64,000 nucleotides of DNA from an uncultured Candidatus Saccharibacteria bacterium (GTDB lineage: Bacteria > Patescibacteriota > Minisyncoccia > Phycocordibacterales > EsbW-18): positions 508 to 64,507 of the forward strand of contig CAYZIR010000005.1 in assembly GCA_964478705.1 (NCBI GenBank). Reading direction: 5' to 3'. The notes beneath the pieces are model-generated. The model was not told where the DNA came from. It ran no database searches and was given only the letters and a program-made list of their open reading frames with translations. Below, in pieces: positions 4,951-60,227 of this stretch. Every line of letters starts with the position of its first letter. The stretch's first letter is position 1. The position numbers and the translations under genes were made by a program.

Positions 4951-5110
4951 TTCGGTCACGAATCACTAAGTATTTTGCTCGCTTTGCTCACAAAATCCTA
5001 AGTGTTCTCGACCCCGCCTCGCCCCGCTCTGCGGGGCTCCGGCCTTCGAATCCTTCCCGAAGCTAAAACAAAAGTCGCCGAATGCTGACGCATCCGGCTC
5101 CTTTGTTTTT
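4951..5110 (-). repeat. ~160-bp tRNA-3'-flanking element bounded by 14-bp direct repeats of the tRNA-Phe 3' end
   Basis: GTGCTTGGGGGCGG at 4937..4950 and 5111..5124. Interior has hairpin CAAAACAAAGGAGCCGGATGCGTCAGCATTCGGCGACTTTTGTTTTAG and module GGATTCGAAGGCCGGAGCCCCGCAGAGCGGGGCGAGGCGGGGTCGAGAACACTTAGGATTTTG, homologous to the element 3' of tRNA-Leu(TAA) at 24758..24916. Confidence 0.7.
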
Positions 5111-5185: not shown

Positions 5186-5186
5186 A

Positions 5187-5270
5187 TAATTCTTCTCTAA
5201 CCAATCCCGACGCTTCGGTCGGGACCCCGACCTCCGCCTTGCGGAGCGTCGGGGCTGAGCTACCCAAGCA
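5187..5270 (-). repeat. Partial tRNA-Phe 5' copy (nt 1-15 plus 16-25) interrupted at D-loop position 15/16 by a 50-nt GC-rich hairpin
   Basis: CTGAGCTACCCAAGCA at 5255..5270 duplicates 5171..5186. Insert TCCCGACGCTTCGGTCGGGACCCCGACCTCCGCCTTGCGGAGCGTCGGGG at 5205..5254. Near-identical insert at tRNA-Thr (60162..60211) and a related one at tRNA-Arg (5844..5903). Confidence 0.75.
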
Positions 5271-5464
5271 AATGAGGATGACACGCAGCGTTTAGGACGA
5301 AGGTTTCGAGGCGAGAGAAAAAGGAAGCTCGCTTACTTTTTCTTGAGACCGAGGAACCGGGAGTCCGAAGCTATGTGGTCCGAACGCCGCTTGGGTATGG
5401 TACTCCATATCCAAGTCTTGCGTATTCGCCATTTTACCACAATTTTCTAGCCTCTCAATGTACG

Positions 5465-5713: not shown

Positions 5714-5828
5714 GACTGAATTATATCATGCATCATTATGATATAGTCGTTTTACGCCCTCATATGAGTACATATGAGATCGGCGTTCGGACAGAATAAA
5801 AGCAAGCTTTCATTCTGCATCCTCACTT

Positions 5829-5916
5829 GCCCTCATAGTTCAAAGCCGACGCTACGAAGTAGGTCTACTCCCCGATTCACGCCTCGCGTGGCGTCGGGGC
5901 TGATAAGAAGGTGTAC
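5829..5916 (+). repeat. Partial tRNA-Arg 5' copy (nt 1-15) followed by a 60-nt GC-rich hairpin insert
   Basis: GCCCTCATAGTTCAA (5829..5843) is identical to tRNA-Arg nt 1-15; insert AGCCGACGCTACGAAG...GGCGTCGGGGCTGA (5844..5903) shares the ends AGCCGACGCT / GCGTCGGGGCTGA with the Phe and Thr inserts. Confidence 0.7.
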
Positions 5917-5918
5917 GC

Positions 5919-5990: not shown

Positions 5991-6188
5991 CAAAACAAAG
6001 GAGTCGGATGCGTCAGCATTCGGCGAGTTTTGTTTTGTAGCTTCACAACAGGGATTGAAAGTGAGTGCGGGGCACCCCGCCAGTAGGCGGGGTCGCACGA
6101 ACAGGGCCGAGCGGAACGAGGAGCGACGGCGACGAGTGAGCGCTTGGCCAATTCCTGGTGAGGGCACAAAACAAAGGAGTCGGATGCG
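5991..6188 (+). repeat. tRNA-Arg 3'-flanking element bounded by 39-bp direct repeats that include the tRNA 3' end
   Basis: AATTCCTGGTGAGGGCACAAAACAAAGGAGTCGGATGCG at 5974..6012 and 6150..6188. Interior carries hairpin CAAAACAAAGGAGTCGGATGCGTCAGCATTCGGCGAGTTTTGTTTTG and motif GGAGCGACGGCGACGAG. Confidence 0.7.
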
Positions 6189-6821: not shown

Positions 6822-6860
6822 TCAACGGGGTCGCGTTGTACCACTAAACTAATCCCGCGT
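6822..6860 (-). repeat. tRNA-like 5' half fragment upstream of tRNA-Gly
   Basis: GCGGGATTAGTTTAGTGGTACAACGCGACCCC (read on minus strand) looks like an acceptor/D-arm but has no matching 3' half. Confidence 0.4.
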
Positions 6861-11058: not shown

Positions 11059-11094
11059 AAAAGCCCCCGTGTATGCGAGGGCTTCTATGACTAT

Positions 11095-11509
11095 GGTTGT
11101 GCACCTGTAAGCCGAATTCTGTTATCGACAAGCATGTGTCTAGGACAAAGATTACTCAATGCCTCAAGCGGCTCTTCCCGCGAACGGGACACGGCCTTGC
11201 ACGTAGGTAAGGATTTTGCCGTTTCACCTCATTGTTGCCAATGAGACACCCCATGAGATAGTGATGCCCGACTTCTTACTTATTTGGACTCTTATCAAAG
11301 TCCGATTACCAAGTAGTTCAGACACCTTTATCTCACGGGGTCCCTATCCTTTCGGAATCGGGCGTTTCTGCTCGCACCTCTATGCTCACGCACGACGGGC
11401 GTTACCCGCTACCGTCCTCTCGGCATCGCAGAGCGATGACGGACGTGTTCGGACTTTCCTCATCCTCCATAGCTTTAGCGACGGAGGATGCGCTTGCCCG
11501 ATGACAACC
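11095..11509 (-). ncRNA. rnpB: RNase P RNA (bacterial type A)
   Basis: Minus strand reads ..GGGCAAGCGCATCCTCCGTCGCTAAAGCTATGGAGGATGAGGAAAGTCCGAACAC.. (P2/P3/P4 5' strand), GGGTAACGCCCG, GGTGAAACGGCA, and ..ACAGAATTCGGCTTACAGGTGCACAACC (P4 3' strand, P1 closing). P1 GGTTGT pairs with ACAACC. Followed by hairpin GAAGCCCTCGCATACACGGGGGCTTTTGTG (terminator, 11060..11090). Confidence 0.85.
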
Positions 11510-17458: not shown

Positions 17459-17479
17459 AAAGATACCTCCTACAAACTG

Positions 17480-17562
17480 TGCGCCGGGGAGGATTCGAAC
17501 CTCCGTAGGCAAAAGCCAGCAGATTTACAGTCTGCCCTCGTTGACCACTTGAGTACCGACGC
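17480..17562 (-). tRNA. tRNA-Tyr (anticodon GTA), long variable arm
   Basis: GCGTCGG acceptor, GGCAGACTGTAAATCTGCT anticodon arm, TTCGAATCC T-loop. Confidence 0.85.
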
Positions 17563-17568
17563 AAAATA

Positions 17569-17607
17569 ACAAACAACCTACAACAAACAACCTACAACAA
17601 ACAACCC
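17569..17607 (-). repeat. GGTTGT-type tandem repeat directly abutting the tRNA-Tyr 5' end
   Basis: tRNA sense strand: GGGTTGTTTGTTGTAGGTTGTTTGTTGTAGGTTGTTTGTTATTTTGC then tRNA. Same motif upstream of tRNA-Leu(TAG) at 25285..25323. Confidence 0.7.
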
Positions 17608-17619
17608 GAAAAAGCAAAA

Positions 17620-21182: not shown

Positions 21183-21381
21183 TCATGTAGCGCGAAACAT
21201 GTAACATGTAGCGTGCAACACAGAATACGGAGTACAGAGTACGGAACATAGAGTACGGAGTACAGAGTACGGAACATAGAGTACGGAGTACAGAGTACGG
21301 AACATAGAGTACGGAACACGGAGTACGGAGTATGGAAACTCCAAACTCATGTACGCGTTACATGTTACATGTTTCGCGCTA
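21183..21381. repeat. 25-bp perfect inverted repeat enclosing a 28-bp tandem repeat array
   Basis: CATGTAGCGCGAAACATGTAACATGTA (21183..21209) and its reverse complement TACATGTTACATGTTTCGCGCTACA (21357..21381). Between them AGAGTACGGAGTACAGAGTACGGAACAT occurs three times plus partials. Confidence 0.8.
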
Positions 21382-24667: not shown

Positions 24668-24755
24668 GCCCGGGTGATGGAATTGGTAGACATACAGGAC
24701 TTAAAATCCTGGGGCCGTGAATTCGGTCGTGTGGGTTCGATTCCCACCCTGGGCA
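24668..24755 (+). tRNA. tRNA-Leu (anticodon TAA), long variable arm
   Basis: GCCCGGG acceptor, loop CTTAAAA, variable arm GGGCCGTGAATTCGGTCGTG, TTCGATT. Confidence 0.88.
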
Positions 24756-24757
24756 CT

Positions 24758-24916
24758 CGGAGGAAATTTAAACATTTTGATCGACGGTGGGAATCGAAGG
24801 CCGGAGGCGCGCCATTGGTCTGAGCGCCGACCTGCCTGCCGGCAGGCAGGGGCGGGGTCGAGAGTACTTAGAATTTTAGGCGCATAGCGACTAAAATACT
24901 TGAGTTGCTCGTGACC
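24758..24916 (+). repeat. 159-bp tRNA-3'-flanking element bounded by 19-bp direct repeats of the tRNA-Leu(TAA) 3' end
   Basis: GATTCCCACCCTGGGCACT at 24739..24757 and 24917..24935. Interior ..GGAATCGAAGGCCGGAGGCGCG..GGGGCGGGGTCGAGAGTACTTAGAATTTTAGGCGCATAGCGACTAAAATACTTGAG..CGTGACC is homologous to the tRNA-Phe element. Confidence 0.75.
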
Positions 24917-24960
24917 GATTCCCACCCTGGGCACTTACAGAATATTTTCAAAATAGGGCA

Positions 24961-25011
24961 CTTTGTTGTAGAGTTGTTTGTACCACCCATATAGACAACC
25001 TATATGGGTGG
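24961..25011 (+). repeat. GGTTGT-repeat plus tRNA-Lys 5'-end fragment embedded in an 11-bp palindrome
   Basis: TTGTTGTAGAGTTGTTTGT then ACCACCCATA (= tRNA-Lys nt -1 to 9), forming the palindrome CCACCCATATAG-ACAACC-TATATGGGTGG. Confidence 0.5.
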
Positions 25012-25153
25012 GGCGTGCGGACCACATGGCGTAGATAGCTCGGGCTCCCATTTTCTCGTGCTCAAGCAAAAATAAGAACAAGCTCTTATTTTTGCTCTCC
25101 ACTCGAAAACACGCCCTCGCTTGAGAGACACACCGCGTGTCATCCTTACTAAA

Positions 25154-25226
25154 CCACCCATAGCTCAGCTGGTAGAGCAGCTCCCTCTTAAGGAGACGGT
25201 CGTAGGTTCGATCCCTACTGGGTGGA
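25154..25226 (+). tRNA. tRNA-Lys (anticodon CTT)
   Basis: CCACCCA/TGGGTGG acceptor, loop CTCTTAA, TTCGATC. Confidence 0.8.
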
Positions 25227-25284
25227 CAGCGTTTAGAAAAAGCTTGGCAACTTGTAATGATATGCGATTCGCCTTTTGTCTGTC

Positions 25285-25323
25285 TTTGTTGTAGGTTGTC
25301 TGTTGTAGGTTGTTGGTTATTTC
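25285..25323 (+). repeat. GGTTGT-type tandem repeat abutting the tRNA-Leu(TAG) 5' end
   Basis: TTTGTTGTAGGTTGTCTGTTGTAGGTTGTTGGTTATTTC followed immediately by the tRNA. Confidence 0.7.
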
Positions 25324-25405
25324 GGGCGAGTGGCGAAATTGGTAGACGCGCTAGCCTTAGGAGCTAGTGTCGCAAGACATGGAGGTTCGAGTCCTCTCTC
25401 GCCCA
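25324..25405 (+). tRNA. tRNA-Leu (anticodon TAG), long variable arm
   Basis: GGGCGAG/CTCGCCC acceptor, loop CTTAGGA, TTCGAGT. Confidence 0.88.
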
Positions 25406-25570
25406 CAAAACAGAGAGCCGAGTGCGTCAGCATTCGGCAATTTTGTTTTGCGCGATTGAGAGAGGGCTCGAAGGGCGGAACCCCGCAGAGCGAGGTGAGC
25501 CGGGTCGAGAAATTTTTACGAGCGACGGCGAGTAAAAAAATGTTCTTGGCCGAATTCTCTCGGCCAAAGC
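25406..25570 (+). repeat. tRNA-Leu(TAG) 3'-flanking element with degenerate direct repeat
   Basis: Hairpin CAAAACAGAGAGCCGAGTGCGTCAGCATTCGGCAATTTTGTTTTG, module GGGCTCGAAGGGCGGAACCCCGCAGAGCGAGGTGAGCCGGGTCGAGAAA, motif ACGAGCGACGGCGAG. Degenerate repeat TCTCTCGGCCAAAGC (25556..25570) versus tRNA 3' TCTCTCGCCCACAAAAC. Followed by a perfect hairpin 25569..25597. Confidence 0.65.
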
Positions 25571-45749: not shown

Positions 45750-48700
45750 TTACGAGCGGGTATTTTCGACTGTTTCTGGAGCAAATGCGTACGCACCACC
45801 AATTGATCGAAGAGAGCGTTCTTTCAGCATGTCGAGAACTCGCACAAGTGAAAGGCGAACTGACGTATAGGCTGAGTCATAACGTTCGTCAACACCATGA
45901 AGGAGCTCTGCGACGATTGATTCAAGTTCTTTATTCGAGAGATGGTAGGTCACTTCAGCGATGTGCGTATTCACACGGGTTCGCTCTTCTGCGCCCTCAA
46001 GTCGTGCACGATGTGCACTGTCGAGTTCAGAAACCACCTTGCGCATGAAGTCGGCGACCGGCTGTTCTTGATGCTTCAACATTCGAAGGAAGGTAAAGAC
46101 CTTTTTGTCTTCGCCTCGGACAATCCATTCAACAAAGATTGGAATCATCGAGAGTGTTGAGATGAAGAGTGATTCACGAACACGCTCTTTATCAAGAACC
46201 AACCAACCATCTTCACGAGGGAAACGACCCTTTGCGATTTCGATTACCTGCGAGAGGCGCTCGAGGGCTTTCTTTTCATCGTTCTCAACTGAATTGCCGA
46301 TGAGTTCTGCTCCATCATCAGAAACCAAGACTCGTGATACTCGTGCTTCGTTCTGAATGCGAGAATAATCGCGTCGAGCAGGTTGTTCGGTCATTCGGGT
46401 ATCAACAAACGCTGGTGTAGAGGTTTTCTCAACAACTGGTGTTGATACTGACGCAAGTGCATCTGGAGCTTGTGCTACCGGTCGTGAGAATGATTCATGC
46501 ATGCGTGATTCTTGTACAATTTCACGAATAGACTGAACACGGGCTGGCGCACTTGCTGTGACCGTATGTGCGAACTCTTCGTATGAGGCGAGAGGTTCAT
46601 GAGCAGACGATTCGTACTCAGCGTCCATAGATGGCGCTACGTTTGTGAATCGCTGTCCTGACTTGCGGAGAAACGCGTATACAACACCTGCTGAGATTGC
46701 CACGAGACCAAGAATAAAGAGAATGATTTGGACAATACTTGAGCCAAGACCAGTGTATGGAACTTGTGTGAGCGAAATCGATGCTCCCAAGACTTCTGGT
46801 TCAGAGAAGAGCACAACGCTCGGTCGGCGACGGTGTCCGCCACCCCCACCACCTCCATCATCATCGTCATCGTCATCATCATCATCGTCGTCATCTCCAG
46901 GAGTTTTGACAACAACACTACCCTTACATGCAATGCCACCACTTGGTCCAGTGAACGAAGCAATGTAAACAGTGTCTACCGTTGGCTTTGTTGTTGTTGA
47001 ACCATTCAGTGGAACTGGTCCGATACCCTGATCAATCGTCGCTGATGTGACATTCTTTGATGTCCACGTGAGTGTTACTGTCTCGCCACTCTGAATAGAG
47101 TTTGGACTTACATCGAGCGTACACTCAGGAACCGGCTCGCTTGAAGGAATAGTGAATTTCACACCTGCATTACAGTAGTTGCGCCCAGGGGTGAAGTTTG
47201 GATCAACCCAAAATGAGTACGTGCGACCTGGCTTGACCGGAACGTTCGTAACAGTTGCTCCGGTGATTCCGTCTTCACAATAGTAGTGAGGGCTTGCACC
47301 ATCAAGACAGGTTTTGAAGCGTGGGTCATCGTAGCGGTCGGTCGTACCGTCATCAAGGCGAATATTGTATGAGACCGCACCTGGAACTGGATTCCACGAG
47401 AGCGTGACGGTGTTTGTATCTGCAGGAAGTGTTCCTGACGGGAAGAGATTTGTTGGGGGAATACAGATGGGGCTGTCAGTCACCGTAATCGTGAGGGTCT
47501 GAGTAATCGCACATTCAGCACCGCTATTCGCAGATGTTGCCTTAACGAGGTATGTGTATGTACCAACCGCAGTAACTGTTCCCGAAATCGTTGCGCCATT
47601 GATCGAGAGACCTGGAGCAGCATTCACCGCTGTGATAACGATTGAGACAGGAGCGATACCACCCGACGTCGTCACCGTGTGTGAGAACGGAAGATTAAGA
47701 CCGGCAACCGCTGTGTTTGAACTTGTGATGGCTGGTTTTGCAGGACACTGGTTGGTCTGGCCAACAGTGATTGTAAAGACCTGACGTGTCGCACATGAAA
47801 GTGTGCTGTTACCACCGCTCATCGCAGTGACCTCGTAGGTGTACACACCAGGGGTCGTTGGCGTACCCGACACTGTCGAAGCACTCGTGTCGATCACCAA
47901 GCCCGGTGCAGCAGGACCAATAGGATTAATGCTGATTGAAATCGGATTCACACCGCCTGTGGTTGTCACTTTGTAGAAGTACGGAACACCAAGCATCGCT
48001 GTTGCTGAAGGAGTGCTTGTGATCGTCGGTTGAACAGGACACTCATTGACTCCGTCGCCAATGATGATTGTCAGAGTTTGTGTTGGACCACACGCAGAGT
48101 CACCATCAGCATTTTGTGCCTTGATCGAATAGGTGTATGTGCCGGTTTGTGTTGGCGTACCTGAGATTGTCTTACCGTTGATTGAGAGACCAGGAGCAGG
48201 ATTGACCGGTGTGATTGTTACAACAGTGCCAAGACCGCCCGCGGTTGTTACGGTGTGTGAGAAAAGCTGACCAACCTGACCCGATGCTGACGCAGGACTT
48301 GTGATGGTCGGCTGACCTACCGGACACTGTGGAGGAGGCACGATCGTAACTGAACACTGTACGGTCTTTGTCTGACTCTTAAACGTTACTGCAACCGTCG
48401 CAGTTTTAGTTCCAACAGTTGTGTATGTGTGAACGACTGGGTTTGTCGTCGAACCATCAGGGAACGTATCATTACCGTTCCAAAGATATGAGAATGCACC
48501 CGTAACACCCGTAATTGTCGCAGTCCATGTTACTGGTTCGCCAATTTTTGCAGGGTTCGGGAGACCGACACACACAAGATCCCAATCAGGATCCTGCGAA
48601 CAGAGTGGGAGCTGCTGGTAGACCTGACCTTTGATGAGCTTTGCAGACGATGAATAGTTTGAGTTTCCTGGGAATGAGACGACATCGAGCTGATAGCGAC

Positions 48701-49199
48701 ATGACGGAAGGTCGACGCGGAAGCTCTTGGTCTGACCAGGGCCAATTGTTTTTTCGTCAGAATCAAAAAGTGTCTGAGGAATCTGGTGAATCGGATCTGA
48801 ATAGACTTGGAAAACTTTCAATGCAAATGGGAACGAACATGTTGGGTGTTCGTTGGTAATTGAGACAGTACCACCTGCAAGATCAAAAGTGTTGTAGATC
48901 TTGAAGTACTGGTCACGAAGCTGACGCAACTCAAAGTCGCTTGCTGGAATACAATCGTCGACTGTCGTTTCTTGACCACCGTCGCCAGGGGCAGGATCGA
49001 CGGGTTCGTCTTCTTTTGGTGCGGGTTCAACAGGTGTAGGCTCTGGTGCTGGGTCAGCCTTCTCTTCTTTTGTTTCTTCGGCAGTCGTGCCACTCGTGTC
49101 TCCACTTTCTTCAGCGGTTACGGCGAACGGAATTTGCCAAGCAACAAAAACCACAAACGCGAGAATTGCGAGTGTTTTGAGGACTGAAATACGTGTCAT
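45750..49199 (-). CDS. Large single-pass surface protein: signal peptide, Pro/Glu linker, four Ig-like repeats, FnIII-like domain, poly-Asp/poly-Gly tract, TM helix, ~330-aa cytoplasmic domain
   Basis: Four ~95-aa repeats (QCPVGQPTITSPASASGQVGQLFSHTVTTAGG..; ECPVQPTITSTPSATAMLGVPYFYKVTTTGG..; QCPAKPAITSSNTAVAGLNLPFSHTVTTSGG..). D13-G7-HRRRP tract encoded at ~46800..46900; VPYTG then TM then RK; start set at MTRISV (49199). Confidence 0.7.
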   Translation of the reverse strand: MTRISVLKTLAILAFVVFVAWQIPFAVTAEESGDTSGTTAEETKEEKADPAPEPTPVEPAPKEDEPVDPAPGDGGQETTVDDCIPASDFELRQLRDQYFKIYNTFDLAGGTVSITNEHPTCSFPFALKVFQVYSDPIHQIPQTLFDSDEKTIGPGQTKSFRVDLPSCRYQLDVVSFPGNSNYSSSAKLIKGQVYQQLPLCSQDPDWDLVCVGLPNPAKIGEPVTWTATITGVTGAFSYLWNGNDTFPDGSTTNPVVHTYTTVGTKTATVAVTFKSQTKTVQCSVTIVPPPQCPVGQPTITSPASASGQVGQLFSHTVTTAGGLGTVVTITPVNPAPGLSINGKTISGTPTQTGTYTYSIKAQNADGDSACGPTQTLTIIIGDGVNECPVQPTITSTPSATAMLGVPYFYKVTTTGGVNPISISINPIGPAAPGLVIDTSASTVSGTPTTPGVYTYEVTAMSGGNSTLSCATRQVFTITVGQTNQCPAKPAITSSNTAVAGLNLPFSHTVTTSGGIAPVSIVITAVNAAPGLSINGATISGTVTAVGTYTYLVKATSANSGAECAITQTLTITVTDSPICIPPTNLFPSGTLPADTNTVTLSWNPVPGAVSYNIRLDDGTTDRYDDPRFKTCLDGASPHYYCEDGITGATVTNVPVKPGRTYSFWVDPNFTPGRNYCNAGVKFTIPSSEPVPECTLDVSPNSIQSGETVTLTWTSKNVTSATIDQGIGPVPLNGSTTTKPTVDTVYIASFTGPSGGIACKGSVVVKTPGDDDDDDDDDDDDDGGGGGGGHRRRPSVVLFSEPEVLGASISLTQVPYTGLGSSIVQIILFILGLVAISAGVVYAFLRKSGQRFTNVAPSMDAEYESSAHEPLASYEEFAHTVTASAPARVQSIREIVQESRMHESFSRPVAQAPDALASVSTPVVEKTSTPAFVDTRMTEQPARRDYSRIQNEARVSRVLVSDDGAELIGNSVENDEKKALERLSQVIEIAKGRFPREDGWLVLDKERVRESLFISTLSMIPIFVEWIVRGEDKKVFTFLRMLKHQEQPVADFMRKVVSELDSAHRARLEGAEERTRVNTHIAEVTYHLSNKELESIVAELLHGVDERYDSAYTSVRLSLVRVLDMLKERSLRSIGGAYAFAPETVENTRS

Positions 49200-49273
49200 A
49201 TATGCGTTACTCATAGTCTGTAGAAATAAAACCCACACCAGTAATCGTAGAATCAATTATACACCTAATAATA

Positions 49274-55556: not shown

Positions 55557-57950
55557 TTAGCGCACCTCCCATCCCTTTCCGCGAATCTCATCCTCAATCT
55601 TACCCATGATCTCACTCACCTCAACATCAGAGAGCGTTTTTTCGTTCGATTGAAAGACGATGTGATATGCGTATGATGTTCTTCCCTCTTTGGTGAATGT
55701 ATCGAAAAGATCCAACCGAGCAAGAAGTTTGCCAGCATGACTTTTGATGACGCCTTCGAGATCTTCTGAGCTGTTGGTTGTTGGTTGTTGGTTGTTGGTT
55801 CCCCCGACCCATACTGCAATGTCACGAAGGATAAAAGGATAGACCGAGATCGGCGCGAATGTCATGTTTGGCAAACGTGGCAAGTCGCCGTACGAGTCAG
55901 GAGTTGGAAGCGATTTGATCGTTTTTGAAAGGGATGCGGTGGCAATGTTTGCTCGCTTCATCCATACAAGCGGAGAAGTGGAGGTCGTCGTCACTGCTGC
56001 AATTGCAGCATCAAGATCTCTGCCCTTTTCTGTCGCAATCCCAATTTGTTGTTCCTCACCAGTCTTACTAAATATGGTGCCAATTTCGAAAATTCGTACA
56101 GCATCGACGCCAATGAGCGGCCTATTTTTTTGGTTGAGCTCAAGGGCAGCCTTTAAACCTTCTACGAGTGACGAACGAAGATATTTTTTATCATTAGCAA
56201 TCGGGTTCGCTACTTCAATTTCACCATCGTCTTGAAATGAGTATGTCGACACCTCGGAAAAGCCGGCATCAACAAGCGCTCGGCGGACGAGCGCTTTGTA
56301 GTATTCGTTCTTGTTGACCGCAGGTGTGAATCCGTCGAAAGGCAACGGTGTTGATGGAATCGATTCAAGACCTTTGAGCCGGCCGATTTCTTCGATCAAA
56401 TCTTCTTTGATACGGATGTCGATGCGCGGCGCGGGAACTGTCACCACAAAGCGTGGTTCGTTGTTCGTGATGATGCGACGATAGCCGACGATATTTTCAA
56501 ATGCCTTGGAACCAGAAAGATCTTCAATGACGACTTCGCCCTTATCCCATTTTCCTGATGCATGAAGGATTTTCCCTTCACCAAGATAGATGCCGTTGTG
56601 ATCGATACCTGCCGAGAGCTTTGTCCCTGCCATGAATTCATGCGAGACACTTGTCTGACGAACTTGGTCGATACCAAGACTTTCAATATGTTCTGTCGAT
56701 CCATCACCCTTTCGATCTGAGAATACGATGTCTCCCGCACGAAGATCATTTGCCTCAACCGGCGCACTAAAAACAAACTGATCAACAGCCATACGCGGAA
56801 TTGCGATTCCAGCTTGTGCGTAGAGATATGCGACCAAAGATGAGCAGTCGAAAGCTCTTGGCGCATCACTCAAAACACTTGCACCGTATTTGTATGGAGC
56901 GCCAACCAAGGTTGGAGCAAGTTTCAAAATCTGTTCAAGCGGCTGTATGTAGGTGTATTCAAAACCAAGACGCTTGAAGTAGTCTTCGACCTCACTTTGA
57001 GAACACGTCGTGCCGAGCGCTGTGTTAATTTCCGAAAGTGAGACGCCAACAACGTAGAGATTCTTTTTGTTTGGATACGACTCAACAATGTCTTGTGCGA
57101 CTTTTCCATTCGCGAGCTCTTCAATGAGTGCCGAAAGACGCTCCATAGCAATCGCAGTAAGTTCAGGACTGATTCCCTGCTCGAATCGGATTGACGCATC
57201 GGTGCGAAGTCCGAGCTTCTTTGATGTCTTGCGAATGTTTACGGGATCAAAATTGCAGACCGAAAGAACGATGCGTGTCGTGTTCGCATCAATACCCGAT
57301 GTCGAACCGCCTTTTACGCCAGCAATATCGAGTGCTTTCTCGCTGTCGCTGATAACAAGAACGTCTGGGTTCAGTACGAATTCCTTACCATCAAGGGTGG
57401 TGATTGTTTCATCTTCTTTTGCTGAACGTATTGAAAGAGCTGTTGGTTGTGAGTTGTTGGTTGTGAGTTTGTCATAGTCGAATGCGTGAACCGGCTGACC
57501 TGTTTCGAGCATCGTGAGGTTCGTTGCATCAACAACGTTGTTGATCGAACGCTGTCCGTGTGCAGCAAGTTTTATTTTGAGCCATTCGGGAGATTCGCCG
57601 ATTGTGACACCTTCGACATAGCGCTTCATTGCGCGTGGAACGAGCTTTGAGTTTTCGATGGTAAGCGAAAGATGATCGCTTGTTGAAATACCTGAGTCGG
57701 TTTTTGGATGAGCCTCAGGAATGTTTGCTGTGACATTGAGAAGCGCGGCGACTTCACGAGCGATACCGTGGTATGAAAAACCATCGTGGGAACGGTTTGG
57801 AAGCACTTTGATATCGAGAATCGTATCGCTGCCGTGTGACTCGGTTCCGTCGATTTCAAATGCATGCATCGTAATCGTGCGCGACAAATCAGCAACCGAT
57901 GGAAGCGGTTTGTCGAAATATTCCTGAAGCCATGCGTAGGAGAATTTCAT
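55557..57950 (-). CDS. pheT: Phenylalanyl-tRNA synthetase beta subunit carrying an inserted NlpC/P60 domain and two in-frame microsatellite insertions
   Basis: B1 and B3/4 (..PEWLKIKLAAHGQRSINNVVDATN..), B5 (..VEDYFKRLGF..), B6/7 (..VTVPAPRIDIRIKEDLIEEIGRLKG..), FDX-ACB C-terminus. aa ~340-490 (nt ~56481..56933) carry APYKYGAS..FDCSSLVAYLY..AGDIVFS..HNGIYLGEGKILHAS. Repeat-coded peptides TTNNSQPT (nt 57441..57464) and GGTNNQQPTTN (nt 55770..55802). Confidence 0.85.
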   Translation of the reverse strand: MKFSYAWLQEYFDKPLPSVADLSRTITMHAFEIDGTESHGSDTILDIKVLPNRSHDGFSYHGIAREVAALLNVTANIPEAHPKTDSGISTSDHLSLTIENSKLVPRAMKRYVEGVTIGESPEWLKIKLAAHGQRSINNVVDATNLTMLETGQPVHAFDYDKLTTNNSQPTALSIRSAKEDETITTLDGKEFVLNPDVLVISDSEKALDIAGVKGGSTSGIDANTTRIVLSVCNFDPVNIRKTSKKLGLRTDASIRFEQGISPELTAIAMERLSALIEELANGKVAQDIVESYPNKKNLYVVGVSLSEINTALGTTCSQSEVEDYFKRLGFEYTYIQPLEQILKLAPTLVGAPYKYGASVLSDAPRAFDCSSLVAYLYAQAGIAIPRMAVDQFVFSAPVEANDLRAGDIVFSDRKGDGSTEHIESLGIDQVRQTSVSHEFMAGTKLSAGIDHNGIYLGEGKILHASGKWDKGEVVIEDLSGSKAFENIVGYRRIITNNEPRFVVTVPAPRIDIRIKEDLIEEIGRLKGLESIPSTPLPFDGFTPAVNKNEYYKALVRRALVDAGFSEVSTYSFQDDGEIEVANPIANDKKYLRSSLVEGLKAALELNQKNRPLIGVDAVRIFEIGTIFSKTGEEQQIGIATEKGRDLDAAIAAVTTTSTSPLVWMKRANIATASLSKTIKSLPTPDSYGDLPRLPNMTFAPISVYPFILRDIAVWVGGTNNQQPTTNSSEDLEGVIKSHAGKLLARLDLFDTFTKEGRTSYAYHIVFQSNEKTLSDVEVSEIMGKIEDEIRGKGWEVR

Positions 57951-60142: not shown

Positions 60143-60150
60143 AATATATT

Positions 60151-60227
60151 TATTCTACCAAAGCCGACGCTTCGGTCGGCTCCCCGACCCTCGCCCTGCG
60201 AGGCGTCGGGGCTGAGCTAAAGCGGCA
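60151..60227 (-). repeat. Partial tRNA-Thr 5' copy interrupted at D-loop 15/16 by a 50-nt GC-rich hairpin (sibling of the tRNA-Phe insert)
   Basis: CTGAGCTAAAGCGGCA at 60212..60227 duplicates 60128..60143. Insert AGCCGACGCTTCGGTCGGCTCCCCGACCCTCGCCCTGCGAGGCGTCGGGG (60162..60211) is ~85% identical to 5205..5254. Confidence 0.75.

What the first reader, a model, noticed from the sequence alone, without database searches (positions are those of the whole stretch)
17569..17607. GGTTGT/ACAACC microsatellite blocks abut tRNA 5' ends and are inserted in frame twice inside pheT
On the tRNA sense strand, TTGTTGTAGGTTGT(T/C)TGTTGTAGGTTGTT.GTTATTT runs straight into nucleotide 1 of tRNA-Tyr (17569..17607) and tRNA-Leu-TAG (25285..25323). 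A shorter version (TTGTTGTAGAGTTGTTTGT) abuts a tRNA-Lys 5'-end fragment at 24961..24990. The same unit occurs inside pheT as ACAACCAACAACTCACAACCAACAGCTC (nt 57441..57470, encoding TTNNSQPT) and AACCAACAACCAACAACCAACAACCAACAGCTC (nt 55770..55802, encoding GGTNNQQPTTN). Both coding copies end with CCAACAGCTC and keep the frame. So the motif is either a tRNA-specific upstream promoter/leader element that has been mobilised into a housekeeping gene, or a hypermutable microsatellite adding Asn/Gln/Thr-rich loops to PheT.
Basis: seen in the sequence. Interest (0 to 1): 0.7.

Follow-up and report, generated by a model that had tools for sequence, protein, structure and literature searches.

The report
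Duplicated tRNA promoter box, separate pheT repeats
The GT-rich repeats in front of two tRNA genes of this Paceibacteria (candidate phyla radiation) genome are most likely a tandemly duplicated promoter -10 box plus a short unstructured leader, strongly conserved in a sister species, and the similar repeats inside pheT are separate in-frame loop insertions.

Summary
A 14-nt unit, TTGTTGTAGGTTGT, repeated 2.8 times, runs into nucleotide 1 of tRNA-Tyr and tRNA-Leu(TAG). A single-copy version abuts a displaced tRNA-Lys 5' fragment. Two ACAACCA-type arrays lie in frame in pheT.

Six syntenic Paceibacteria genomes keep TTGCnT, 17 nt, TAnnnT after the clpB stop and upstream of tRNA-Tyr. In the window and two relatives, the TAnnnT box is the first TAGGTT of the repeat. 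The Tyr and Leu blocks are therefore two paralogous promoter-plus-leader cassettes of about 56 nt with identical geometry. The 14-nt repeat duplicates the -10 box with its flanks. The second unit would be transcribed as part of a roughly 20-nt, C-free, unstructured leader that RNase P removes.

Both cassettes are nearly identical in a sister genome (55/58 and 53/58) whose clpB four-fold sites are only 40% identical. So they are selected, not hypermutable.

The pheT arrays are lineage-specific insertions in variable loops, in the opposite transcriptional orientation. The sister genome that keeps the tRNA cassettes lacks them, so there is no sign of mobilisation from tRNA genes.

GTTGT heptads also occur as hairpins inside RNase P RNA of relatives and widely in Bacteroidota. 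No transcription start was mapped, and single-sequence promoter scores are not significant. Interest is modest.

The parts
17612..17617 (-). -35-like hexamer TTGCTT of the proposed tRNA-Tyr promoter, just after the clpB stop codon
   Evidence: TTGC[TCG]T is kept in 6 of 6 syntenic genomes, always 17 nt upstream of a TAnnnT box. Coordinates.
17589..17594 (-). First TAGGTT, the proposed -10 hexamer of tRNA-Tyr; it ends 26 nt before tRNA +1
   Evidence: It aligns with TATGTT, TAATTT and TATCGT of relatives at the same 17-nt spacing. It is the best sigma-70 PWM match in the 70 nt upstream, although that score is not significant on its own.
17575..17580 (-). Second TAGGTT, 14 nt downstream of the first (about +3 to +8 of the inferred transcript)
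   Evidence: It is retained at the same 14-nt offset in L203 and L205, although its distance to the tRNA differs (12, 13 and 6 nt).
17563..17606 (-). GTTGT heptad array (14-nt unit x2.8) with GTTATTTT tail, abutting tRNA-Tyr +1
   Evidence: The second half is the inferred leader. It has no predicted secondary structure (MFE 0 kcal/mol).
17479..17562 (-). tRNA-Tyr (GTA)
   Evidence: ARAGORN and Rfam.
25269..25274 (+). -35-like hexamer TCGCCT of the tRNA-Leu(TAG) cassette
   Evidence: Same position as TTGCTT in the Tyr cassette: it ends 49 nt before tRNA +1. Conserved in L203.
25292..25297 (+). First TAGGTT of the Leu cassette (proposed -10); ends 26 nt before tRNA +1
25306..25311 (+). Second TAGGTT of the Leu cassette; ends 12 nt before tRNA +1
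25284..25323 (+). GTTGT heptad array with GTTATTTC tail, abutting tRNA-Leu(TAG) +1
   Evidence: It is 100% identical in L203 while the spacer 5' of it differs.
25324..25406 (+). tRNA-Leu (TAG)
24945..24982 (+). Single-copy version: TTTTCA, 18 nt, TAGAGT (24969-24974), then 8 nt. Proposed original tRNA-Lys promoter.
   Evidence: TTTGTTGTAGAGTTGTTTGTA is 100% conserved in L203, where the -35 reads TTGTCA.
24983..25011 (+). Displaced tRNA-Lys 5' fragment (nt 1-9) folded back on its own complement (CCACCCATATAG/CTATATGGGTGG)
   Evidence: It is followed by a ~140-nt insert ('X', 25012-25153) before the live tRNA-Lys at 25154-25227.
57437..57464 (-). pheT array 1: ACAACCAACAACTC + ACAACCAACAGCTC, encoding TTNNSQPTA, in the B3_4 region
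   Evidence: The orthologous position in L210 carries ACAGCCAACAGCTC x1.8. The array is absent in L209, L211 and L212.
55768..55800 (-). pheT array 2: (ACCAACA)x4 + GCTC, encoding TNNQQPTTNS, in the C-terminal domain
   Evidence: Present only in the window's protein.
55557..57950 (-). pheT (PheRS beta subunit with embedded NlpC/P60 domain)
11091..11509 (-). RNase P RNA (class A), the enzyme that would remove the leaders
   Evidence: RF00010, 93.1 bits, E = 6.8e-29, below the gathering score of 100.

Best explanation
The blocks upstream of tRNA-Tyr and tRNA-Leu(TAG) are two paralogous promoter-plus-leader cassettes of about 56 nt.

Each cassette has:
- a -35-like hexamer (TTGCTT or TCGCCT);
- a 17-nt spacer;
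- a -10 hexamer, TAGGTT, which is the first TAGGTT of the repeat.

The 14-nt 'microsatellite' is a tandem duplication of that -10 hexamer together with its TTGTTG and GT flanks. It probably arose by slippage between the similar TTGTT stretches on either side of the box.

Transcription is inferred to start about 7 nt after the first TAGGTT. The second unit plus GTTATTT(T/C) would then form a leader of about 20 nt. This leader is G/U-only and unstructured, and RNase P cuts it off at tRNA +1.

The short block before the tRNA-Lys fragment is the unduplicated form (TAGAGT, 8 nt, tRNA +1). It is the original Lys promoter, now separated from the live gene by a later insertion.

The pheT arrays are a separate product of the same heptad-repeat tendency of this clade. 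They are in-frame expansions in two variable loops, on the opposite strand relative to transcription.

Shown here: the sequences, the geometry, the conservation and the phylogenetic distribution. Inferred: promoter activity, the start site, and any role of the second unit.
For: 1. In six syntenic genomes, the stretch between the clpB stop and tRNA-Tyr reads TTGC[TCG]T, 17 nt, TA[GTA][GTC][TG]T. TTGC, the sixth T, and the T, A and final T of the second box are invariant. The spacer varies. The distance from the -10 box to the tRNA ranges from 10 to 27 nt.
2. In the window, L203 and L205, that -10 box is the first TAGGTT of the repeat.
3. The Tyr and Leu cassettes have identical geometry: hexamers end 49, 26 and 12 nt before +1. 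They are 45/58 identical without gaps, including the -35 region.
4. Between the window and L203, clpB four-fold degenerate sites are 40% identical. The Leu cassette is 55/58 identical and the Tyr cassette 53/58. All differences lie upstream of the array, in or just 5' of the 5' part of the spacer. The three Tyr-versus-Leu differences are kept in both species.
5. The TATAAT that overlaps the clpB stop is not conserved (GCGTAAGC in L203), so it is not the promoter.
6. tRNA-Trp of relatives shows the same pattern. TGGCGA, 17 nt, TA[AG][TG]TT lies 9-10 nt before the tRNA in three genomes, but 27-28 nt before it, with GTTGT heptads in between, in two others.
7. Among 79 other CPR tRNA-Tyr loci with a good sigma-70-like match, the -10 box most often ends 8-10 nt before the tRNA. 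A -10 box just upstream of the tRNA is therefore the norm in this group.
8. The leaders have no predicted structure, and the Tyr leader leaves the tRNA-Tyr cloverleaf intact in the predicted fold.
9. RNase P RNA is present.
10. pheT is independent of the cassettes.
Against: - No transcription start site has been mapped.
- PWM scores for TTGCTT-17-TAGGTT (8.1 bits) and TCGCCT-17-TAGGTT (6.0 bits) are matched by 158 of 500 and 262 of 500 shuffles of the same T/G-rich sequence. The promoter call therefore rests on cross-species geometry alone.
- TAGGTT matches TATAAT at only 3 of 6 positions, and TCGCCT is a poor -35.
- No terminator precedes either cassette, so tRNA-Tyr could be read through from clpB and tRNA-Leu from tRNA-Lys.
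- The model does not explain why the second unit is conserved as strictly as the first.
- Only about 220 kb of this clade could be examined, not whole genomes.
Confidence: 0.55

Rival explanations
1. The array is only a transcribed spacer. tRNA-Tyr is co-transcribed with clpB, and tRNA-Leu(TAG) with tRNA-Lys. The selected property is RNA-level: a C-free, unstructured G/U stretch directly 5' of the tRNA. It would keep the RNase P site accessible and insulate tRNA folding from upstream RNA. Alternatively, it is a heptad-spaced binding site for a single-strand RNA-binding protein of the S1 or cold-shock type.
For: - There is no terminator between clpB and tRNA-Tyr, or between tRNA-Lys and tRNA-Leu.
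- The leaders fold to 0 kcal/mol.
- In this clade's tRNA-linked arrays and in the three tRNA-linked CPR hits (L015, L045, L049), the array is always in the sense orientation and ends within 0-30 nt of the tRNA.
- Conservation covers the whole downstream part, not only the -10-like hexamer.
- TAACTGA heptamer repeats placed just upstream of start codons have been proposed as sites for S1, Csp or Csr proteins (PMC4679880).
Against: - The conserved TTGCnT, 17 nt, TAnnnT geometry also holds in relatives with no repeat at all. A spacer-only model does not predict this.
- The second TAGGTT keeps its 14-nt offset from the first, while its distance to the tRNA varies (12, 13 and 6 nt).
- Ninety-five other CPR tRNA-Tyr genes do without any such spacer.
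Confidence: 0.2
2. The arrays are neutral or selfish heptanucleotide simple-sequence repeats produced by replication slippage. They sit next to tRNAs only because T/G-rich promoter flanks seed them, and they have no function of their own.
For: - GTTGT-type arrays account for 4 of the 6 substantial period-7/14 repeats in the window.
- They come and go among relatives: Tyr in 4 of 7 genomes, Trp in 2, Leu(TAG) in 2.
- They also occur inside RNase P RNA, in intergenic hairpins and in coding DNA.
- They are common in unrelated phyla with no consistent orientation: 15 forward and 15 reverse among intergenic hits.
- Heptanucleotides are the commonest long simple-sequence repeat class in bacteria (Mrazek 2007, as cited in PMC4679880).
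Against: - Both cassettes are almost unchanged between two species whose neutral sites are near saturation (40% identity at four-fold sites). Paralogue-specific substitutions are preserved.
- Copy number is the same in three species and in an independent assembly.
- A neutral perfect repeat should have drifted in length and sequence over this divergence.
Confidence: 0.12
3. The block is a mobile element (MITE-like, or an integration scar) that targets tRNA 5' ends and has also jumped into pheT.
For: - Near-identical cassettes sit at two unlinked tRNA genes.
- tRNA genes of this genome do carry insertion and duplication scars.
- Inverted ACAAC/GTTGT arrays are inserted in RNase P RNA of two relatives.
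- The two pheT arrays share the terminal 14-mer ACAACCAACAGCTC.
Against: - The tRNA cassettes have no terminal inverted repeats and no target-site duplication.
- The pheT arrays have a different heptad, the opposite orientation, and none of the -35 or tail parts.
- The sister genome has the cassettes but no pheT arrays.
- pheT site 1 is an old, diverged local duplication shared with a 72%-identical homologue.
Confidence: 0.04

Closest known systems
Sigma-70-type promoters directly upstream of tRNA genes, including tandem or overlapping -10 elements
   Same: A -35-like TTGnnn box, a 17-nt spacer and a TAnnnT box are conserved in position across six genomes. Other CPR tRNA-Tyr genes have a canonical TTGCAA-17-TAGAAT promoter 8-10 nt before the tRNA.
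   Different: The -10 box with its flanks is duplicated in tandem (14-nt period). The leader is lengthened from about 3 nt to about 20 nt. The hexamers are weak matches (3/6 each). No start site has been mapped.
Sigma-dependent promoter-proximal pause elements (a -10-like sequence in the initially transcribed region, e.g. lambda PR'; PMC9191641)
   Same: If the first TAGGTT is the -10 box, the second lies at about +3 to +8 on the non-template strand. As I recall it, the lambda PR' pause element lies at about the same place in the transcript (my recollection, not checked in the paper). T-rich sequence followed by G (TTTT|G, TTTC|G) lies 10-12 nt further on and resembles the TNYG pause consensus described in that paper.
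   Different: This is purely a geometric resemblance. No pausing data exist, CPR sigma factor behaviour is unknown, and L204 has lost the second TA-containing hexamer.
TAACTGA heptamer direct repeats upstream of start codons in Beggiatoaceae, cyanobacteria and some Bacteroidetes (MacGregor 2015, PMC4679880); cyanobacterial STRR heptamers
   Same: Short tandem heptanucleotide arrays, intergenic, in 'forward' orientation, ending within a few nucleotides of the downstream gene. Distribution across phyla is patchy.
   Different: The heptad differs (nnGTTGT). Here the arrays abut tRNA genes rather than start codons. There are only 2-3 sets in 64 kb, against 169 per genome. Here a promoter -10 box can be placed inside the repeat.
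Long simple-sequence repeats and phase-variable promoter or coding microsatellites (contingency loci)
   Same: Perfect tandem units in a promoter region and inside an ORF.
   Different: Copy number is stable across species and assemblies. The coding arrays are in frame in an essential gene, and one of them is old.
Rickettsia palindromic elements (selfish repeats inserted in frame into protein genes and into RNA genes)
   Same: The same repeat family is found in frame in a housekeeping protein gene (pheT) and, as a hairpin, inside a structural RNA gene (RNase P RNA of L204 and L205).
   Different: The pheT arrays are direct heptad expansions of 28-33 nt, not 100-150-nt palindromes. No evidence of transposition was found. 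This comparison is from my own knowledge and was not tested here.

Membership tests
Sigma-70-type promoter | -35 (TTGnnn) and -10 (TAnnnT) hexamers separated by 16-18 nt | tested here: met
   TTGCTT-17-TAGGTT (Tyr) and TCGCCT-17-TAGGTT (Leu). Single-sequence scores are not above shuffles.
Sigma-70-type promoter | Hexamers and spacing conserved across species while the spacer sequence varies | tested here: met
   6 of 6 genomes keep TTGC.T and TA...T at 17-nt spacing. Spacer columns are 3-5 of 6 identical.
Sigma-70-type promoter | Primary transcript 5' end about 7 nt downstream of the -10 box | not testable with these tools
   No transcriptome data are available.
Hypermutable microsatellite / contingency locus | Tandem identical short units | tested here: met
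   Tandem Repeats Finder: 14-nt unit x2.8 with 100% matches; 7-nt unit x4.1 with 100% matches in pheT.
Hypermutable microsatellite / contingency locus | Copy-number variation among strains or close relatives | tested here: not met
   L202, a second assembly of the same organism, is identical. There are two TAGGTT units in the window, L203 and L205. Leu cassette 55/58 and Tyr cassette 53/58 identical to L203, with neutral sites at 40% identity. No strain data exist for pheT.
Heptamer direct repeats upstream of genes (TAACTGA type) | Heptanucleotide direct repeats, forward orientation, ending within a few nt of the downstream gene start | tested here: met
   The heptad differs, and here the downstream genes are tRNAs.
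Heptamer direct repeats upstream of genes (TAACTGA type) | Many sets per genome, mostly before start codons | tested here: inconclusive
   Four heptad runs in 64 kb, none before a start codon in the window. The whole genome is not available.
MITE / mobile insertion element | Terminal inverted repeats and target-site duplication at each copy | tested here: not met
   Neither feature is present at the Tyr or Leu cassettes or at the pheT arrays.
Pre-tRNA 5' leader processed by RNase P | RNase P present, and a single-stranded leader directly 5' of tRNA +1 | tested here: met
   RNase P RNA at 11091-11509, E = 6.8e-29. Leader MFE is 0 kcal/mol and, for tRNA-Tyr, the cloverleaf is kept in the predicted fold. 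Cleavage itself was not tested.
Sigma-dependent pause element | -10-like hexamer on the non-template strand within the first ~10 transcribed nt | tested here: inconclusive
   The geometry fits if the first TAGGTT is the -10 box. This depends on an unmapped start site, and pausing cannot be tested.
Any Rfam RNA family | Covariance-model match over the block | tested here: not met
   Only tRNAs were found in the window and in 18 related or repeat-bearing loci.

The most novel reading that the evidence does not exclude
After RNase P cleavage, the released G/U-rich tRNA leaders could act in trans on pheT mRNA. The two in-frame ACAACC arrays of pheT are complementary to the leaders. Predicted duplexes are -19.8 and -25.4 kcal/mol, against a window-wide background of -9.5 +/- 3.0. 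This would couple tRNA maturation to synthesis of a tRNA synthetase subunit.

A less exotic variant is that the duplicated -10 box is a sigma-dependent pause module placed just before the tRNA.

The sister genome keeps the leaders without the pheT arrays. Any such pairing would therefore be a very recent, lineage-specific acquisition.
Probability: 0.04. Interest if true: 0.75.

Novelty: new variant of a known kind. Interest (0 to 1): 0.35.

Why it matters
Almost nothing is known experimentally about promoters and tRNA maturation in candidate-phyla-radiation bacteria. This locus gives a concrete, testable promoter model: TTGCnT, 17 nt, TAGGTT.

It also shows a core promoter box being copied in tandem and then held fixed by selection. 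That lengthened the tRNA leader from about 3 nt to about 20 nt at three different tRNA genes of one clade.

The same heptad can end up as a promoter or leader, as an expansion hairpin in RNase P RNA, and as extra loops in an essential protein. This is a useful caution against inferring mobilisation or shared function from a shared simple repeat.

The effect on biology is probably modest.

Tried and rejected
- **Rfam.** Searches of the window, the tRNA flanks and 18 repeat-bearing loci found only tRNAs, plus RNase P RNA below threshold.
- **Literature search for the repeat string.** It returned only primer sequences.
- **TATAAT overlapping the clpB stop as the promoter.** Rejected because it is not conserved in L203.
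- **Leaderless tRNAs in an organism without RNase P.** Rejected because RNase P RNA is present.
- **A leader specific to class II (long-arm) tRNAs.** Rejected because Lys, Trp and Gln examples exist.
- **A widely conserved CPR tRNA-Tyr leader.** Rejected. Of 97 distinct tRNA-Tyr upstream regions (95 from the metagenome scan, plus the window and L045), only the window and L045 carry it.
- **Statistical support for the promoter from a PWM alone.** It failed, because shuffles of these T/G-rich sequences score as well.
- **Bacteroidota -7 motif TAnnTTTG.** The repeat (TAGGTTGT) mismatches the last two positions. The many Bacteroidota hits show no orientation rule, and many put ACAAC on a coding strand.
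- **The ACAACC in the loop of the tRNA-Lys fragment hairpin as a copy of the motif.** Rejected because the loop reads GGCAAAT in L203.
- **Derivation of the repeat unit from a tRNA D-arm (TTGGTAGAG).** Considered because tRNA-Thr has such a D-arm-derived -10 box. The similarity is too weak to claim for Tyr or Leu.

Full report
**What is there**

The window comes from a Paceibacteria (Patescibacteria/CPR) genome. Its PheT and ClpB are identical to proteins on a 64.6-kb NCBI contig, and the nearest named relatives are 'Candidatus Pacebacteria'. ARAGORN finds ten tRNAs.

On the sense strand, tRNA-Tyr (17479-17562, -) is preceded by ...TTGCTTtttcgggttgtttgttgTAGGTTgtttgttgTAGGTTgtttgttatttt|G. tRNA-Leu(TAG) (25324-25406, +) is preceded by ...TCGCCTtttgtctgtctttgttgTAGGTTgtctgttgTAGGTTgttggttatttc|G.

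Tandem Repeats Finder calls a 14-nt unit with 2.8 and 1.9 copies. The 14-mer with up to 2 mismatches occurs 6 times, against 0.44 expected.

A single-unit version, TTGTTGTAGAGTTGTTTGT (24963-24981), is followed by nt 1-9 of tRNA-Lys. This lies 171 nt upstream of the live tRNA-Lys.

In pheT (55557-57950, -) two arrays of ACAACCA-type heptads lie in frame, at 57437-57464 and 55768-55800.

A detector for in-phase GTTGT heptads finds exactly these four runs in 64 kb.

**Is it a general tRNA leader?**

No. A metagenome scan with the first 26 nt of tRNA-Tyr was unbiased with respect to the leader. Together with the window and L045 it gave 97 distinct upstream regions from diverse CPR bacteria, and only the window and L045 carry the repeat. 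Most of the others show a canonical promoter such as TTGCAA-17-TAGAAT. Their -10 box most often ends 8-10 nt before tRNA +1, which implies very short leaders.

**Syntenic relatives**

ClpB homologues led to syntenic loci from six related genomes with 80-86% ClpB identity, plus a second assembly of the source organism.

- The second assembly (L202) has the identical Tyr leader.
- L203 (GCA_018061915.1) has both cassettes.
- L205 is the same contig as L045, which came from the genome scan. It has the Tyr cassette with a shorter tail.
- L204 has a degenerate version (CTGTTGTATGTTGTCTGTTGTCGGTTATCTCAC).
- L206, L207 and L208 have none.

Anchoring all Tyr upstream regions on the conserved TTGC after the clpB stop gives, in six of six genomes, TTGC[TCG]T, 17 nt, TA[GTA][GTC][TG]T. 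TTGC, the sixth T and the T, A and final T of the second box are invariant. The spacer is variable. Between 10 and 27 nt then separate the second box from the tRNA.

This is the signature of a sigma-70-type promoter. In the repeat-bearing genomes its -10 box is the first TAGGTT of the repeat. The TATAAT that overlaps the clpB stop in the window is GCGTAAGC in L203, so it is not the promoter.

**Two paralogous cassettes under selection**

The Tyr and Leu blocks share exact geometry. The three hexamers end 49, 26 and 12 nt before tRNA +1. The blocks align without gaps at 45 of 58 positions, including the -35 region.

Between the window and L203, four-fold degenerate sites of clpB are only 40% identical, which is close to saturation. 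Despite this, the Leu cassette is 55/58 identical and the Tyr cassette 53/58, after removing one extra T. All substitutions lie upstream of the array, in or just 5' of the 5' part of the spacer. The three positions that distinguish the Tyr copy from the Leu copy (T/C, T/G, T/C) are the same in both species.

So each copy has been held unchanged since before the species split. This argues against a hypermutable or neutral repeat and against ongoing gene conversion between the copies.

**The short Lys version**

This reads TTTTCA (TTGTCA in L203), 18 nt, TAGAGT, 8 nt, then tRNA-Lys nt 1-9. It has the common CPR geometry and is 100% conserved in L203.

I read it as the original Lys promoter. It carries the same TTGTTG...TGTTTGT flanks around the -10 box as the duplicated cassettes. 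Those similar flanks are what would allow slipped-strand duplication of a 14-nt unit containing the box.

**A second locus tells the same story**

tRNA-Trp in L204, L206 and L208 has TGG[CT]GA-17-TA[AG][TG]TT ending 9-10 nt before the tRNA. In L203 and L205 the same boxes lie 27-28 nt upstream, with GTTGT heptads filling the gap. Leader lengthening by GTTGT heptads has therefore happened at Tyr, Leu(TAG) and Trp in this clade.

**Mechanism (inferred)**

Transcription would start about 7 nt after the first TAGGTT. The second unit and the GTTATTT tail then form a leader of about 20 nt made only of G, U and a few A. Its predicted folding energy is 0 kcal/mol, and for tRNA-Tyr the predicted fold leaves the leader unpaired and the cloverleaf intact.

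RNase P RNA is present at 11091-11509 (-). It scores 93 bits against RF00010, just below the gathering score, which is why the default scan missed it. Conventional 5' processing is therefore expected.

Why the second unit is conserved is open. It keeps its 14-nt offset from the first unit, while its distance to the tRNA varies (12, 13 and 6 nt). This points to a transcription-level role, such as a second register or a sigma-dependent pause element (concept in PMC9191641), rather than a role at the RNase P site. This is speculation.

**Weak points**

- No start site has been mapped.
- The hexamers are poor matches.
- PWM scores are not better than shuffles of these T/G-rich sequences.
- Read-through from clpB or from tRNA-Lys is possible.

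**pheT**

An alignment of 25 homologues shows both arrays as extra residues in variable loops.

- Site 2 (TNNQQPTTNS) is unique to the window's protein.
- Site 1 (TTNNSQPTA) is absent from the closest homologue (P0002, 89% identical). It is present in P0006 and P0010 as TANSSQPT(V/A). In P0006 the DNA is again a 14-mer duplication, ACAGCCAACAGCTC x1.8. Site 1 is therefore old and has diverged.

Both window arrays end in the same 14-mer, ACAACCAACAGCTC, so site 2 may derive from site 1.

The coding strand carries ACAAC, so the GT-rich strand is antisense. This is the opposite of the tRNA cassettes.

The sister genome that keeps both tRNA cassettes (L203 and L212, same assembly) has no array at either pheT site. 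The cassettes and the pheT arrays are therefore independent. Mobilisation of a tRNA element into pheT is not supported.

**Wider picture**

A scan of 185,579 species genomes for TGTTGTAGGTTGTNTGTTG gave 81 loci.

- Most are Bacteroidota, Ignavibacteria or Planctomycetes. They have long arrays, often paired with an inverted ACAAC array to form hairpins. There is no orientation rule, and 29 hits put ACAAC on a putative coding strand.
- About ten are CPR. There the motif lies just upstream of tRNA-Gln, tRNA-Ser and rplK, or directly before other start codons.

In L204 and L205 an ACAAC...GTTGT hairpin of about 75 nt is inserted in the RNase P RNA gene. L204 also has such a hairpin between infB and an aminotransferase gene.

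GTTGT heptads are therefore a recurrent simple-repeat family, not a tRNA-specific element.

The closest described analogues are the TAACTGA heptamer repeats that sit in forward orientation just upstream of start codons (PMC4679880), and heptanucleotide long simple-sequence repeats in general.

**Verdict**

The tRNA-side blocks are a lineage-specific, selected tandem duplication of a promoter -10 region plus leader (confidence 0.55). The pheT blocks are separate in-frame loop expansions of a related heptad. This is a new variant of known kinds and of modest interest.

Noticed in passing
window 5186-5269 (-), 5829-5918 (+), 60143-60226 (-): tRNA-Phe, tRNA-Arg(CCT) and tRNA-Thr each have an exact copy of their own nt 1-15 about 84-90 nt upstream. 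The copy is followed by a ~50-nt GC-rich hairpin insert (ccccgacgc...gcgtcgg) and a remnant of their own D-arm. In Thr the remnant reads TTGGTAGAAT, a perfect extended -10 box (TGGTAGAAT, 60152-60160) 9 nt before tRNA +1. The sister genome's tRNA-Thr (L212) lacks this, so the event is recent. No Rfam match was found. The mechanism is unknown.
   Followed up: partly
window 24983-25153 (+), 5270-5415 (-), 5756-5828 (+): A second insert family ('X') lies upstream of tRNA-Lys, Phe and Arg. It starts with tRNA nt 1-9 folded back on their own complement (an acceptor-stem-like hairpin), continues with GGCGT(T/G)CGGAC, and ends in GTGTCATCCT plus 5-7 nt, abutting a tRNA +1. In Arg and Phe it lies upstream of the pseudo-copy described above, so the events are serial. 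X at tRNA-Lys is shared with L203 and L204.
   Followed up: partly
window ~6827-6858 (-): Ten nt upstream of tRNA-Gly(CCC) lies a truncated older tRNA-Gly (nt 1-31, cut at the anticodon loop). Its sequence matches the tRNA-Gly of relative L207, not the window's present and different tRNA-Gly. This suggests tRNA gene replacement.
   Followed up: partly
window 24739-24935 (+): The last 19 nt of tRNA-Leu(TAA) are duplicated (24739-24757 and 24917-24935) around a 159-nt insert that carries an inverted copy, GGTGGGAATCG (24786-24796). L203 lacks the insert.
   Followed up: partly
window 5066-5105 (-), 5996-6035 (+), 25410-25445 (+): A shared terminator-like module, AAAACA(A/G)AG(G)AGCCG(G/A)(A/G)TGCGTCAGCATTCGGC(G)A-TTTT, follows tRNA-Phe, tRNA-Arg and tRNA-Leu(TAG). 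L203's tRNA-Leu(TAG) has a different terminator.
   Followed up: no
window 11091-11509 (-); L204 19097-19170; L205 20157-20230: RNase P RNA (class A) scores 93 bits, below Rfam's gathering score of 100, so default annotation misses it. In two relatives the gene carries a ~75-nt ACAAC/GTTGT heptad hairpin as an expansion segment.
   Followed up: partly
window 21217-21329: A 14-nt tandem repeat (AACACAGAGTACGG, 8 copies, with a 28-nt super-period) lies in the intergenic region between a trypsin-like protease gene and an aminotransferase gene. It is unrelated to the GTTGT family.
   Followed up: no
window 55557-57950 (-): PheT carries an embedded NlpC/P60 (C40 peptidase) domain (PF00877). So do all but two of the 120 listed homologues, all from Paceibacteria-like bacteria. 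The two close homologues P0012 and P0013 lack it.
   Followed up: no
window 46856-46895: A (CAT)13 trinucleotide repeat lies inside the 1168-aa ORF 45750-49256 (-).
   Followed up: no
L204 7641-7785: The divergent infB/aminotransferase intergenic region of a relative holds an ACAAC array and a 7-unit GTTGT array that fold into one long hairpin (-58 kcal/mol).
   Followed up: partly
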